A stretch of DNA of 64,000 bases from an uncultured Clostridia bacterium (GTDB lineage Bacteria; Bacillota; Limnochordia; Darwinibacteriales; Darwinibacteriaceae), in the NCBI GenBank assembly GCA_900018335.1, contig FIZK01000006.1, positions 5,576 through 69,575 on the forward strand, given 5' to 3'. The notes beneath the pieces are model-generated. The model was not told the origin of the DNA. It saw only the letters and a program-made list of their open reading frames with translations, and ran no database searches. The translations under genes and the position numbers were made by a program. Below are positions 57,851 to 60,617 of this stretch, piece after piece; position 1 is the first letter of the stretch; the number at the start of each line of letters is the position of its first letter.

Positions 57851-57879
57851 GAGGCACCCCTTGGGGTGCCTCGTTTTTT
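57851..57879. terminator. bidirectional terminator between the convergent substrate-binding-protein gene and atpH
   Basis: GAGGCACCCC-ttgg-GGTGCCTC perfect hairpin followed by GTTTTTTG; A-rich on the opposite strand. Confidence 0.65.
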
Positions 57880-57961
57880 GGCTAAGAACGCCGCATGGGG
57901 CAGTTTCTATGTGCACAGAAAAAGCCCTGGTTTTCACCGGGGCTTTGCCTTCGTTTAGGGA

Positions 57962-58495
57962 CTAGCTGCTTAAGCTGTGGACAAACGTGTTCAGGCGATG
58001 TTTGACGCTGGCATCGAGAACCTTGCCATCCACCTGGATGATCAGCCCACCGCCAATGCCGGGGTCCACCTGGGTGCGCAGGAGCACTTTCTTTCCAGTA
58101 AGCTCGCTCAACTTATGCTGAAGTTGGACCTGCTCTTCCTGACTGAGCTCCAGGGCAGAGGTGACCTGGGCGATGGTGGTATTCTGGTCCTGCAAGACCA
58201 GACGCTCAAAGTCACGGTGCATGAGGGGGAGCAGCCCTTCTCGCCCCTTCTCCACAACCAGGAGGAGAAAGCTTTCCAGCAAATCCGAGAGCCCCATGAG
58301 GCGGACTAGCTCAACTTTGCGCTGCTGAGACGTGCGGGGATGGTAAAAAACCTTGTTGATGACAGGGTCCTGCAAAACAGTCAAGACTCCACTTAACTCT
58401 TTATGCAGTTCCGCGTGCCTTCCCCCTGCGGCCAAAAACAGCGCCTTGGCGTATCGGTTGGCGATCTGGGAATTCCTAGTAGTGTTCATGCTCAT
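57962..58495 (-). CDS. atpH: F0F1 ATP synthase subunit delta (OSCP)
   Basis: 177 aa, OSCP family (IANRYAKALF..., C-terminal GGLIIQVDGKVLDASV); overlaps atpF by 4 nt. Confidence 0.85.
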   Translation of the reverse strand: MSMNTTRNSQIANRYAKALFLAAGGRHAELHKELSGVLTVLQDPVINKVFYHPRTSQQRKVELVRLMGLSDLLESFLLLVVEKGREGLLPLMHRDFERLVLQDQNTTIAQVTSALELSQEEQVQLQHKLSELTGKKVLLRTQVDPGIGGGLIIQVDGKVLDASVKHRLNTFVHSLSS

Positions 58496-58989
58496 TGCAG
58501 ATGTCCTTTGTCCAGGTTATCCAGTTGACTGATGGTATCGGCAATCAGGCGCCGATGCTGCGCTGCATCAAGGGAATCATCGATGACCTTTGCAGCTAGC
58601 TGCACAGACAGCTCGCCCACCTGCTGTTTCAGCTCTGACCAGGCCTTGTCTTTTTCCAGTTGGATTTCCTTCTGAGCTCTGTCCAAAAGGGTCTTGGCCT
58701 CGGCCTTTGCTTCGGCCAGCAGTTTGGCTTGAGCCTGCTCAGCACGCTTAGTGGCTTCGTCGATGATTTGCCGCGCCTGCTGTCGGCTTTCCTGAGCCTG
58801 CTGTTCGAGCTTAAGGCGCAGGGCCTCTGCTGCCTTTTGGTTCTCTTCAGCGGTGCGGATCTGCTTCTCAATCTCAGCCGTGCGCTGATCCATGAAGCTG
58901 CGCACCGGTTTGTACAGCAGCTTGTAGAGGAGCAGCATCAGTAAGATGAAGTTGATGGTCTGAGCCACCAACAGGTTTTGGTCAATCAA
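58492..58989 (-). CDS. atpF: F0F1 ATP synthase subunit b
   Basis: N-terminal TM (TINFILLMLLLYKLL) followed by a long charged helix; 165 aa. Confidence 0.85.
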   Translation of the reverse strand: MIDQNLLVAQTINFILLMLLLYKLLYKPVRSFMDQRTAEIEKQIRTAEENQKAAEALRLKLEQQAQESRQQARQIIDEATKRAEQAQAKLLAEAKAEAKTLLDRAQKEIQLEKDKAWSELKQQVGELSVQLAAKVIDDSLDAAQHRRLIADTISQLDNLDKGHLQ

Positions 58990-59074
58990 CTTCAGTCACC
59001 CTTTGCAGCAAATCTGAACGTAAAAGGGAGGGTGCCTGAAAACGTAATCAGCGTTTTCCAGCACACCCCAGGTT

Positions 59075-59350
59075 CTAAAGCAGTTCCAACAAGCGGTTTA
59101 CTAAAGGAAGCACCACTGTGAAAATCAGCAGCAGCACCACGGCAAGAGAGTAGATGGCACCAGATTCGGAGATGGCCTGGCCCAGGATCATGGTAGTTCT
59201 TATGGACCCCTCCATCTCAGGCTGGCGGGCCATGGCTTCCACGGCTTTCCCAGCGACATAACCTTCTCCAATACCAACCAGTCCGCCGGCAAGCAGAGCA
59301 ACACCAGCACCGATGGCAATTGCGGCGACTATAATGGCAATCTCTAGCAT
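59075..59350 (-). CDS. atpE: F0F1 ATP synthase subunit c
   Basis: Hairpin protein with a [20 protein letters not shown] loop region and carboxylate helix [15 protein letters not shown]; 91 aa. Confidence 0.9.
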
Positions 59351-59384
59351 GAGTTTCCCTCCCTTCGCATTCTTGCTGACTATT

Positions 59385-60029
59385 CTAGTTGATTTTTATC
59401 TGAATGTAGATCACAGCGAGCAATGTAAATACTGCTGTTTGGATGATGCCCATCAGTACTCCGAACCACGCCAAAAGCGGTACGGGAAGGACGTACGGCG
59501 CGAGCATATAGACAATGCCGATTAAGATGCTGCCGCCAAAGATGTTTCCGTAAAGACGAAAGGCGTGTGAGATGACCTGGGAGATTTCTCCAGCTAAGTT
59601 AATGGGAAACATGAAAAAGTAGGGTTCGAAAAATCCCTTCAACCAAGGCCAGAAGCCTTTCTTGACAATGGCCGCTACATGACCCACCACAAAGACAAAC
59701 AGGGCCAGGGTAAGCGTAGTAGTCAGATCCTCGGTGGGGGAGACGGCGCCGGGCACCACCCCGATCAGGTTAGACAAACCGACAAAAGTCGCGACCATGA
59801 GAATAAGCGGCACAAACACTTTTCCTTCAGGACCCATATCGCCAACCACGACGTTCTCAATGCCCTCCACGGCCACTTCCAAAAGGTGCTGCACTCCCCG
59901 GGGAACCTTCCGTAGGTTCCGGGTGAGGAAGAAACAGGCGATGGCAACGGCTGCCATGATGATCCATGTAAAAAGAAGCGGTTCAGATATGGGAAACGTG
60001 TGTATGTAGAAAAGCACCTTAGGTTCCAC
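59385..60029 (-). CDS. atpB: F0F1 ATP synthase subunit a
   Basis: a-subunit family ([10 protein letters not shown] with the essential Arg, [11 protein letters not shown]). GTG 60029 with a GGGAGGA Shine-Dalgarno matches the canonical N-terminus (PKVLFYIH); the ORF extends to 60089. Confidence 0.85.
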
Positions 60030-60399
60030 CTTTGATCCTCCCTTGCAGCATGTGGTAGACAATGGCCAGCCTGGGCATGAGCAGTCCAAAAAAGGCAGCC
60101 AAGTAGTTCAAATGGGGACTTGCCGCCGCCGCCCCAAGGGTGGCAGCGTAAAGGGCGCAGCGTTTGAGAAAAGACTTCCTGTTGAAGCGGGATACATCGC
60201 GCTTGGAGAGCCTTACAGTTCGAGCTAGCTGCAGCAGTCGCGTAGCATCGATAATCATCAACCTCAGCGTCAGCACACTCATGAGCCCTCCCAAAAGGAG
60301 GCCCAGTGCCGCCTGCGGCTTAACGACCGCGATTCCTGCCGCCAGCAGGAAGGTGAGGACTGCCGTGGTACGAACAACGTCAACTTCGTTAAACATCAT
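60019..60399 (-). CDS. atpI: ATP synthase protein I (AtpI)
   Basis: 126-aa hydrophobic protein in the canonical position upstream of atpB. Confidence 0.65.
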   Translation of the reverse strand: MMFNEVDVVRTTAVLTFLLAAGIAVVKPQAALGLLLGGLMSVLTLRLMIIDATRLLQLARTVRLSKRDVSRFNRKSFLKRCALYAATLGAAAASPHLNYLAAFFGLLMPRLAIVYHMLQGRIKGGT

Positions 60400-60617
60400 T
60401 TGCGCTCCGAATTGCTGGGCAACGCGTTCACGATGAGCTTATAGGCGCTCCAGATGGAGGTAAAACAGCCAATAAGCAAAAAAACTAAGGTGAATATCGC
60501 CCGTGTCTTGAGCAAGCGGTCGATGTATAGCCCCAAAGCGGTAAAAAGGCCGACACTCACTGCGACGGTCACGCCCACTTGAGTTACCAAAGAAATGTAC
60601 TTCAGGCTATTTTTCAT
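60396..60617 (-). CDS. atpZ: AtpZ/Atp1-like small membrane protein (ATPase_gene1 family)
   Basis: 73-aa protein with two TM helices, overlapping atpI by 4 nt, in the first position of the atp operon as AtpZ is in Bacillus. Confidence 0.5.
   Translation of the reverse strand: MKNSLKYISLVTQVGVTVAVSVGLFTALGLYIDRLLKTRAIFTLVFLLIGCFTSIWSAYKLIVNALPSNSERK

What the first reader, a model, noticed from the sequence alone, without database searches (positions are those of the whole stretch)
57851..60617. F-type ATPase operon ends after atpH: F0 plus delta genes only, F1 core genes absent
On the minus strand the order is atpZ-atpI-atpB-atpE-atpF-atpH. atpH is followed by a strong bidirectional terminator (57851..57879) and a convergent ABC substrate-binding gene, not by atpA-atpG-atpD-atpC. 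Contiguous atpIBEFHAGDC is the rule in Firmicutes. This split implies separate transcription of the membrane sector plus stator and the catalytic F1 genes, and raises stoichiometry-control questions.
Basis: seen in the sequence. Interest (0 to 1): 0.5.

Follow-up and report, generated by a model that had tools for sequence, protein, structure and literature searches.

The report
Split ATP synthase operon, lineage-wide
In this uncultured biogas-digester bacterium and its whole order, the membrane and stator genes of the ATP synthase form their own operon, and indirect evidence from one published related genome places the catalytic genes at the old operon site roughly half a megabase away; this is a real but modest variation on a known theme.

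Summary
On the minus strand, 57962-60617 encodes atpZ-atpI-atpB-atpE-atpF-atpH. No alpha/beta-like gene lies anywhere in the 64 kb window.

It is not an assembly artefact. The identical arrangement occurs on more than 20 independent contigs, the collection recording one of 1.8 Mb. It also occurs in every relative examined from Candidatus Darwinibacteriales (MBA03), apparently including both families. Each has its own hairpin-plus-T-run terminator just after atpH.

The atpH terminator is a second hairpin at 57921-57946.

The two fully readable outgroups keep the intact order upp-cdd-tagO-wecB-atpZIBEFHAGD(C). A published gene table for a DTU010 genome places two ATPase catalytic subunits, one gene apart, directly after wecB. 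They sit on the same contig, about 475 genes from the Fo/delta genes. So the Fo-plus-delta module probably moved and the F1 genes stayed. I could not retrieve the F1 sequences, so this step is inferred.

All six genes are under strong purifying selection. Split atp operons are common in other phyla, and this cut point (alpha|delta) is a rare variant. Interest is low to moderate.

The parts
60396..60617 (-). atpZ (AtpZ/ATPase_gene1 small membrane protein), first gene of the unit
   Evidence: Pfam PF09527, E = 5e-14. Overlaps atpI by 4 nt.
60019..60399 (-). atpI
   Evidence: Pfam PF03899, E = 1e-8. Overlaps the atpB start by 11 nt.
59385..60029 (-). atpB, Fo subunit a (214 aa from the conserved ATG; MEPKVLFY...)
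   Evidence: Pfam PF00119, E = 4e-44. NCBIfam TIGR01131 111 bits against a cut-off of 102.6. The start is conserved in L007 and L009.
59075..59350 (-). atpE, c subunit with a Na+-type ion-site signature (E32, E65, S66, Y70; T67 replaced by G)
   Evidence: Pfam PF00137. TIGR01260 passed. The best solved-structure matches are the Na+ c-rings 4bem, 3zk1 and 1yce. The motif is conserved across the order.
58492..58989 (-). atpF, subunit b (single copy)
   Evidence: Pfam PF00430, E = 2e-30. TIGR01144 passed.
57962..58495 (-). atpH, delta/OSCP subunit, last gene of the unit
   Evidence: Pfam PF00213, E = 2e-38. TIGR01145 passed. Helix-1 motif SQIA-RYA-ALF is invariant in 10 relatives. dN/dS is 0.06-0.13.
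57914..57947 (-). Intrinsic terminator of the atpZ-atpH unit (stem 57946-57921, then a T-run)
   Evidence: -18.3 kcal/mol for 57905-57961, z = -2.8. A hairpin plus T-run lies close after the atpH gene end in 11 of the 12 relatives checked (none evident in L014), with different sequences.
57848..57881 (+).
   Evidence: The T-run is on the + strand only. Energy -23.4 kcal/mol, z = -4.9. Absent in L009 and L021, which lack the ABC genes.
60720..60749 (-). Sigma-70-like promoter candidate with an extended -10 (TTGGAT ... TGtTATCAT)
   Evidence: Conserved only in L001, L007, L009 and L016. Consensus match only; not tested.
60653..60679 (-). Conserved upstream element GAAGGAAA-N10-ATGTTGAAC, about 40 nt before the atpZ start; possible alternative promoter (sigma-H-like) or leader
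   Evidence: The most conserved columns of the intergenic alignment. Present in both apparent family groups. Function inferred only.
53682..57814 (+). Opp-type ABC cassette (two permeases and a binding protein) between atpH and the SNF2 helicase gene; variable neighbour
   Evidence: Pfam. Absent in L009 and L021; binding-protein gene duplicated in L017.

Best explanation
**What it is.** The locus is a self-contained transcription unit, atpZ-atpI-atpB-atpE-atpF-atpH. It encodes the membrane sector (a, c-ring), the peripheral stalk (b, delta) and two small accessory proteins of an ordinary F-type ATP synthase. The enzyme is probably Na+-coupled. The unit has its own upstream promoter region and its own intrinsic terminator.

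**How it arose.** In the common ancestor of Candidatus Darwinibacteriales (MBA03, class Limnochordia), these six promoter-proximal genes were cut out of a standard atpZIBEFHAGDC operon. They were re-inserted between the rimO-pgsA block and the yqhH/yqhG (SNF2 helicase) block. The catalytic genes atpA-atpG-atpD (and presumably atpC) stayed at the old site, directly downstream of upp-cdd-tagO-wecB, roughly 0.45-0.5 Mb away.

**How it works.** The enzyme is assembled from the products of two separately transcribed units: the F1 core (alpha3 beta3 gamma epsilon) and Fo plus stator (a, c-ring, b2, delta).

**Shown.**
- Gene content and boundaries of the unit.
- Conservation across the order.
- Intact operons in the two fully readable outgroups.
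- Purifying selection on all six genes.

**Inferred.**
- The identity and position of the F1 genes. This rests on a published gene-reaction table of one DTU010 genome, not on sequence I read.
- The direction of the move.
- Promoter use.
- Ion specificity.
For: **Anatomy.**

**No F1 nearby.** No alpha/beta homologue occurs in the window, in the +/-10 kb flanks of loci L001-L017, or among the called genes of L018, L021 and L022.

**Same arrangement in all relatives.** It is found in 7 GTDB species representatives (a-subunit identity 65-88%). It is also found in a second, deeper group with a-subunit identity 50-53%.

**Terminator.** A hairpin plus T-run with a differing sequence lies close after the atpH gene end in 11 of the 12 relatives checked; none is evident in L014.

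**Outgroups.** L019 and L020 carry upp-cdd-tagO-wecB-atpZIBEFH-atpA-atpG-atpD. L019 is cut off within atpD; L020 continues through atpC and murA. L023 shows upp-cdd-wecB-atpZIBEF and breaks off inside atpH.

**Published gene table.** Supplement file 4 of PMC11844248 lists genes of MAG metabat1.31, which is GTDB DTU010 sp002391385.
- murG 551, murE 526, murF 525, mraY 524, murA 522 and murC 509 are in the same order and spacing as in the window. This puts atpH to atpZ at about contig38_503-498.
- On the same contig, upp is 983, dCMP deaminase 982, a 2.7.8.x transferase 981 and UDP-GlcNAc 2-epimerase 980.
- Genes 979 and 977 are assigned to a Na+-translocating ATPase. The one gene between them fits the alpha-gamma-beta pattern.

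**Selection.** dN/dS is 0.03-0.18 for all six genes in three species pairs. The delta helix-1 motif is invariant.

**Independent module calls.** Two papers score the F-type ATPase as present in these MAGs (PMC12663870; PMC11932165).
Against: - I never saw the F1 sequences of this lineage. A search with an outgroup gamma subunit returned only Desulfotomaculia- and Heliobacteria-like proteins. A bridging DNA pattern in the metagenome collection gave one false positive.
- The identity of contig38_977 and 979 as beta and alpha rests on an automated gapseq assignment, on their spacing and on their neighbours.
- atpC (976?) and atpG (978?) carry no annotation in that table.
- The same model lists no H+ ATP synthase reaction for this MAG.
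- Whether that MAG is the same species as the window is not established. Only the synteny matches.
- Transcription start and stop sites are predictions.
Confidence: 0.85

Rival explanations
1. Assembly or binning artefact: a mis-join at about 57880-57960 hides atpAGDC.
For: None found.
Against: The exact protein and layout recur on independent NCBI, JGI, ENA and Logan assemblies; the loci inspected come from contigs of 65-524 kb, and the collection records a 1.8 Mb contig. The layout recurs in species diverged to 46% delta identity. A conserved terminator follows atpH.
Confidence: 0.01
2. Orphan Fo-delta: the genome has no F1 core at all, and the six genes serve some other role (ion channel, or a remnant on its way to loss).
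For: I did not retrieve any F1 sequence from this lineage. The published statements that the F-type ATPase is present are module-level calls that could tolerate gaps. The gapseq model of the DTU010 MAG lacks the standard ATP synthase reaction.
Against: In the DTU010 MAG, two ATPase catalytic-subunit genes spaced by one gene sit exactly where atpA and atpD lie in the outgroups, right after wecB. All six genes, including delta, show dN/dS of 0.03-0.18. From established knowledge, the only known role of delta is to hold F1. An open Fo without F1 would leak ions. According to PMC12663870, Darwinibacteriaceae lack a V-type enzyme.
Confidence: 0.04
3. Extra partial copy: a complete atpIBEFHAGDC operon exists elsewhere, and this locus is a duplicated Fo-delta set.
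For: Some bacteria carry second, partial or alternative atp clusters (PMC5709465).
Against: In the DTU010 MAG, gene numbers run 980 (wecB) then 979 (ATPase subunit), leaving no room for Fo genes there. The delta and a-subunit searches returned one lineage-specific series of clusters and no second paralogous series of comparable abundance.
Confidence: 0.03
4. It is an N-type (alternative, Na+) ATPase cluster or another non-canonical type rather than a canonical F-type half-operon.
For: The c subunit has two carboxylates (E32, E65) like N-ATPase c subunits and the F. nucleatum c-ring.
Against: A delta subunit is present, and the gene order is the canonical a-c-b-delta with AtpZ and AtpI. The NCBIfam 'alternate F1F0' models for a, c and b score far below their cut-offs (130 against 302, 40 against 131, 81 against 225), while the canonical equivalogs pass.
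Confidence: 0.01

Closest known systems
Standard Firmicutes atp operon (atpIBEFHAGDC, with atpZ in many)
   Same: Same genes, same internal order and same overlaps between neighbouring genes. The two fully readable outgroups, L019 and L020, have exactly this operon in the upp-wecB context, followed by murA in L020.
   Different: Here the unit stops at atpH with its own terminator and sits in a different neighbourhood (rimO-pgsA on one side, the SNF2 helicase gene on the other). The F1 genes are not adjacent.
Split atp operons of Alphaproteobacteria (Rhodospirillum rubrum type: b-c-a plus delta-alpha-gamma-beta-epsilon) and other phyla
   Same: The enzyme is encoded by two or more conserved, lineage-specific transcription units (PMC5709465).
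   Different: The cut point differs. In those groups delta travels with F1, or b and delta both travel with F1. Here delta and b stay with Fo.
The 'delta-b-c-a' transcription-unit module reported by Niu et al. 2017
   Same: Same module content (a, c, b, delta) and the same alpha|delta cut point (PMC5709465).
   Different: [quoted passage not shown] Here F1 appears to remain one block. The lineage is an uncultured Bacillota order not covered by that survey.
Na+-translocating F1Fo ATP synthases (Ilyobacter tartaricus, Fusobacterium nucleatum, Acetobacterium woodii)
   Same: The c subunit is most similar to these solved Na+ c-rings. It keeps E32 (F. nucleatum type), E65, S66 and Y70.
   Different: T67 is Gly in the window's family group. 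Ion specificity is untested. Those organisms have contiguous operons (from my own knowledge).

Membership tests
Canonical bacterial F-type ATP synthase, Fo and stalk genes | Subunit a of the ATP-synt_A family with the conserved Arg in the penultimate helix | tested here: met
   PF00119. TIGR01131 above its cut-off. The [12 protein letters not shown] motif is invariant in the three sequences aligned.
Canonical bacterial F-type ATP synthase, Fo and stalk genes | c subunit hairpin with the ion-binding carboxylate | tested here: met
   PF00137 and TIGR01260 passed. E65-equivalent present.
Canonical bacterial F-type ATP synthase, Fo and stalk genes | b subunit and delta (OSCP) subunit present | tested here: met
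   PF00430 and PF00213. TIGR01144 and TIGR01145 passed.
Canonical bacterial F-type ATP synthase, Fo and stalk genes | F1 genes alpha, gamma, beta, epsilon contiguous downstream of delta (standard operon) | tested here: not met
   No alpha/beta homologue in the 64 kb window or in the flanks of any relative.
Canonical bacterial F-type ATP synthase, Fo and stalk genes | F1 genes present somewhere in the same genome | tested here: inconclusive
   Indirect only. The gene table of a DTU010 MAG shows two ATPase subunit genes next to wecB. The sequences were not retrieved.
N-ATPase (alternative F1Fo, atpDCQRBEFAG) | No delta subunit; characteristic gene order; AtpQ and AtpR; matches to the 'alternate F1F0' models | tested here: not met
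   Delta is present. The order is a-c-b-delta. TIGR03306, TIGR03322 and TIGR03321 are far below their cut-offs.
Na+-coupled F-type c-ring | Q/E32, E65, S66, T67 and Y70 ligand set (I. tartaricus numbering) | tested here: inconclusive
   Four of the five side chains are kept. T67 is Gly in the window's family group. The full set is present in L018 and L022 of the deeper group and in the outgroups. Ion binding cannot be tested with these tools.
Intrinsic (Rho-independent) terminator after atpH | GC-rich hairpin followed by a T-run, conserved in position | tested here: met
   A hairpin plus T-run lies close after the atpH gene end in 11 of the 12 relatives checked (none evident in L014), with differing stem sequences.

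The most novel reading that the evidence does not exclude
The split may be more than a neutral rearrangement; it may be used for control. The Fo-plus-stator half carries its own conserved upstream element (GAAGGAAA-N10-RTGTKGAAC), which resembles a sigma-H-type stationary-phase or sporulation promoter. The F1 half sits behind cell-wall precursor genes. The cell could then make the ion-conducting, stator-bearing half conditionally, and so set how much Na+-coupled ATP synthase is assembled independently of F1 supply. That would be a transcriptional route to the 'delta joins last' assembly logic.
Probability: 0.1. Interest if true: 0.45.

Novelty: new variant of a known kind. Interest (0 to 1): 0.25.

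Why it matters
- **Energy metabolism in biogas plants.** MBA03/Darwinibacteriales are among the most abundant bacteria in biogas plants and are proposed syntrophic acetate oxidisers living near the thermodynamic limit. How they build and regulate their only ion-coupled ATP synthase bears on their energy budget. Published reports of an Rnf complex, together with the Na+-type c subunit, suggest a sodium cycle.
- **Annotation.** Pipelines and metabolic models that expect one operon can miss or mislabel the enzyme. The published gapseq model lists only a three-gene 'Na+-ATPase'.
- **Evolution.** This is a clean, datable example of a ten-gene operon cut at the alpha|delta boundary, with both halves kept for a long time. 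It fits the modular view of F1Fo and shows that contiguity is not required even in Bacillota.
- **Limits.** It does not overturn anything.

Tried and rejected
1. **F1 in the window.** tblastn with an F1 beta query found none. The murA at 37752-39002 belongs to the dcw cluster, not to an atp context.
2. **Delta alignment for the genome scan.** I used the a subunit instead, which returned only members of the order.
3. **Deeper relatives.** I looked up P0119, P0121 and P0123 hoping for an intermediate or intact operon. All are split.
4. **Gamma search.** I used the last protein search with the gamma subunit of the nearest outgroup (L019). The top 120 hits were all Desulfotomaculia- or Heliobacteria-like at 52-57% identity, with none from the order.
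5. **Bridging DNA pattern.** The pattern was the WecB C-terminal motif, a 228-288 nt gap, then the AtpA GDGIA motif, run in the metagenome collection. It gave one hit, L024 (GC 71%), which has wecB only and matched the second motif by chance.
6. **Supplements.** Those of PMC12663870 and PMC10608942 hold no usable KO tables. The Fo gene numbers do not appear in the PMC11844248 table.
7. **Small upstream ORF.** The ORF starting at the conserved RTG-TGG-AAC was considered as a leader peptide. I rejected it as a conserved protein because its length, frame and sequence beyond three residues are not conserved.
8. **N-ATPase.** Rejected.
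Full report
**Observation**

The minus strand between 57962 and 60617 carries six tightly packed ORFs. Pfam identifies them as AtpZ (PF09527), AtpI (PF03899), Fo a (PF00119), Fo c (PF00137), b (PF00430) and delta/OSCP (PF00213). Subunits a, c, b and delta pass the curated NCBIfam equivalog cut-offs. The 'alternate F1F0' (N-ATPase) models fall far below theirs.

Neighbouring genes overlap or nearly abut:
- atpZ/atpI overlap by 4 nt.
- atpI/atpB overlap by 11 nt, using the conserved ATG at 60029.
- atpF/atpH overlap by 4 nt.

Downstream of atpH the only real gene is a convergent SBP_bac_5 binding-protein gene at 56084-57814. The long minus-strand ORF at 56657-57937 is a shadow ORF with no family match. 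A tblastn search with an F1 beta sequence, which would also detect alpha and V-type A/B subunits, finds nothing in the 64 kb window. The rest of the window holds housekeeping genes: pheT, mutS2, ruvAB, glyQS, ppdK, the dcw cluster and murC.

**Terminators**

The intergenic 147 nt contains two hairpins.
It is the terminator of the binding-protein gene.
- The second (57921-57946; minus strand AAAGCCCCGG-TGAAAA-CCAGGGCTTT followed by TTCTGTG, the T-run partly within the stem) is the terminator of atpH.

Across twelve relatives, a hairpin plus T-run of quite different sequence lies close after the atpH gene end in eleven; none is evident in L014. The GGCACCC...GGGTGCC hairpin appears only where the ABC gene is present. 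The end of the atp unit is therefore a conserved, functional-looking feature.

**Not an artefact, and a trait of the lineage**

The exact AtpH protein is indexed in 455 blocks of the assembly collection. The six loci shown, from NCBI and JGI records with contigs of 65-524 kb, have the same layout; the collection also lists Logan and ENA sources and a longest contig of 1.8 Mb.

The closest named relative is Candidatus Darwinibacter acetoxidans, with 63% delta identity. This places the window in Candidatus Darwinibacteriales (formerly MBA03; families DTU010 and DTU012, class Limnochordia), an abundant uncultured group of anaerobic digesters (PMC12663870, PMC11932165).

The arrangement rimO | atpZIBEFH | (ABC cassette) | SNF2 helicase, with no alpha or beta within 10 kb, was found in:
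- seven GTDB species representatives with a-subunit identity of 65-88%;
- further members;
- a second, deep group with a-subunit identity of only 50-53%.

I take that deep group to be the other family, but this assignment is an inference from the identity matrix. The ABC cassette is missing in L009 and L021, so it is a later insertion and not the cause of the split.

**Outgroups and the location of F1**

The nearest a-subunit relatives outside the order are L019, L020 and L023.
- L019 shows upp-cdd-mazG-tagO-wecB-atpZIBEFH-atpA-atpG-atpD and is cut off within atpD.
- L020 shows upp-cdd-tagO-wecB-atpZIBEFHAGDC-murA.
- L023 shows upp-cdd-wecB-atpZIBEF and breaks off inside atpH, so it confirms only the upstream context.

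I could not fetch F1 sequences of the order with the capped searches. The supplement of PMC11844248, however, holds the gene-reaction table of a MAG assigned to GTDB DTU010 sp002391385.
- On its contig38 the numbers are murG 551, murE 526, murF 525, mraY 524, murA 522 and murC 509. These reproduce the order and spacing of those genes in the window (11172, 32797, 34251, 35594, 37752, 49504).
- I had predicted murA = 522 from the window before reading it. This places atpH to atpZ at about genes 503-498.
- On the same contig, upp is 983, dCMP deaminase 982, a 2.7.8.x transferase 981 and UDP-GlcNAc 2-epimerase (wecB) 980.
- Genes 979 and 977 are both assigned to a 'Na+-translocating ATPase'.

Two catalytic-subunit genes separated by exactly one gene, directly after wecB, is the alpha-gamma-beta pattern at the ancestral site, with no room for Fo genes. 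The most economical reading is that the Fo-plus-delta block moved about 475 genes away and F1 stayed. This step is inferred from an automated annotation, not from sequence I inspected.

**Function**

All six genes evolve under strong purifying selection. dN/dS is 0.03-0.04 for a; 0.04-0.05 for c; 0.03-0.10 for b; 0.06-0.13 for delta; and 0.07-0.18 for Z and I.

The helix-1 motif of delta (SQIA-RYA-ALF) is invariant in ten relatives. From established structural knowledge, this helix forms the groove that holds the alpha N-terminus. A conserved delta makes sense only if an F1 head exists.

The c subunit is most similar to the solved Na+-binding rings of A. woodii, F. nucleatum and I. tartaricus. 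It keeps E32, E65, S66 and Y70, with T67 replaced by Gly in the window's family group. L018 and L022 of the deeper group and the outgroups have the full motif. The papers report an Rnf complex in these MAGs, so a sodium cycle is plausible but untested.

**Promoter region**

A sigma-70-like promoter with an extended -10 (60749-60720) is conserved in only part of the window's family group. Closer to atpZ lies the element GAAGGAAA (60679-60672), then N10, then ATGTTGAAC (60661-60653). It forms the best-conserved columns of the intergenic region and is present in both groups. It is not a conserved small ORF. It resembles the B. subtilis sigma-H consensus as I recall it (RnAGGAwWW, 11-12 nt, RnnGAAT). 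That is a lead, not a test.

**Comparison with what is known**

Split atp transcription units are widespread and lineage-specific. Niu et al. 2017 (PMC5709465) list:
- b-c-a plus delta-alpha-gamma-beta-epsilon in Alphaproteobacteria;
- epsilon-beta plus the rest in Cyanobacteria and Bacteroidetes;
- c-a or c and a apart in Delta- and Epsilonproteobacteria;
- a 'delta-b-c-a' module as part of a three-way split.

The present case has a two-way cut at alpha|delta, in a Bacillota order, with the F1 block left at the ancestral site. It is a further variant of that known kind. I found no paper that describes it for Limnochordia or MBA03. It raises no fundamental stoichiometry problem, since many bacteria manage with split units. 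It is broadly compatible with the view, from the E. coli assembly literature as I recall it, that the F1 core and the a-b2 stator join late through delta.

**Verdict**

The feature is genuine, ancient and order-wide. It is of modest interest as a new variant of a known kind.

Noticed in passing
window 59075-59350 (-); L018, L019, L020, L022, L023: The c subunit carries a Na+-type ion site. E32 (GIGEGY, as in the F. nucleatum two-carboxylate site), E65, S66 and Y70 are kept. T67 is Gly in the window's family group. L018 and L022 of the deeper group and the outgroups have the full ESTGIYSL-type motif (L020: ESTGIYAF). The best solved-structure matches are all Na+ c-rings. Published reports of an Rnf complex in these MAGs also suggest a sodium cycle.
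   Followed up: partly
window 60653-60679 (-); the same position in L007-L018, L021, L022: The element GAAGGAAA-N10-RTGTKGAAC lies about 40 nt upstream of atpZ and is strongly conserved. It is not a conserved small ORF. It resembles the B. subtilis sigma-H promoter consensus, which I recall from memory. Function unknown.
   Followed up: partly
window 53682-57814 (+): An Opp-type ABC cassette has two permeases and a binding protein but no ATPase genes next to it. It is inserted between atpH and the SNF2 helicase gene. It is absent in L009 and L021, and its binding-protein gene is duplicated in L017.
   Followed up: partly
window 56657-57937 (-): A 426-aa ORF lies right after atpH on the same strand. 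It is antisense to the binding-protein gene and has no family match. It is a shadow ORF that could be mistaken for a seventh operon gene.
   Followed up: yes
window 11172-12260, 32797-39002, 49504-50856: The cell-wall (mur/dcw) genes are scattered. murG and murC lie far from murE-murF-mraY-ftsW-murA, no murD was seen in the cluster, and murA sits inside the dcw block. This points to extensive rearrangement in this lineage.
   Followed up: no
window 62731-63327 (+) and beyond 63312; L001 3682-5735: A roughly 500-aa FtsH-like protein (AAA plus Peptidase_M41 domains, shorter than typical FtsH) overlaps a conserved 188-198 aa protein with no family match. Both are conserved next to pgsA across the order.
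   Followed up: no
Supplement file 4 of PMC11844248 (MAG metabat1.31): The published gapseq model of a DTU010 genome has no standard ATP synthase reaction. It has only a three-gene 'Na+-translocating ATPase' (contig38_316, 977, 979). The Fo/delta genes are not linked to any reaction, possibly a side effect of the split operon on automated reconstruction.
   Followed up: partly
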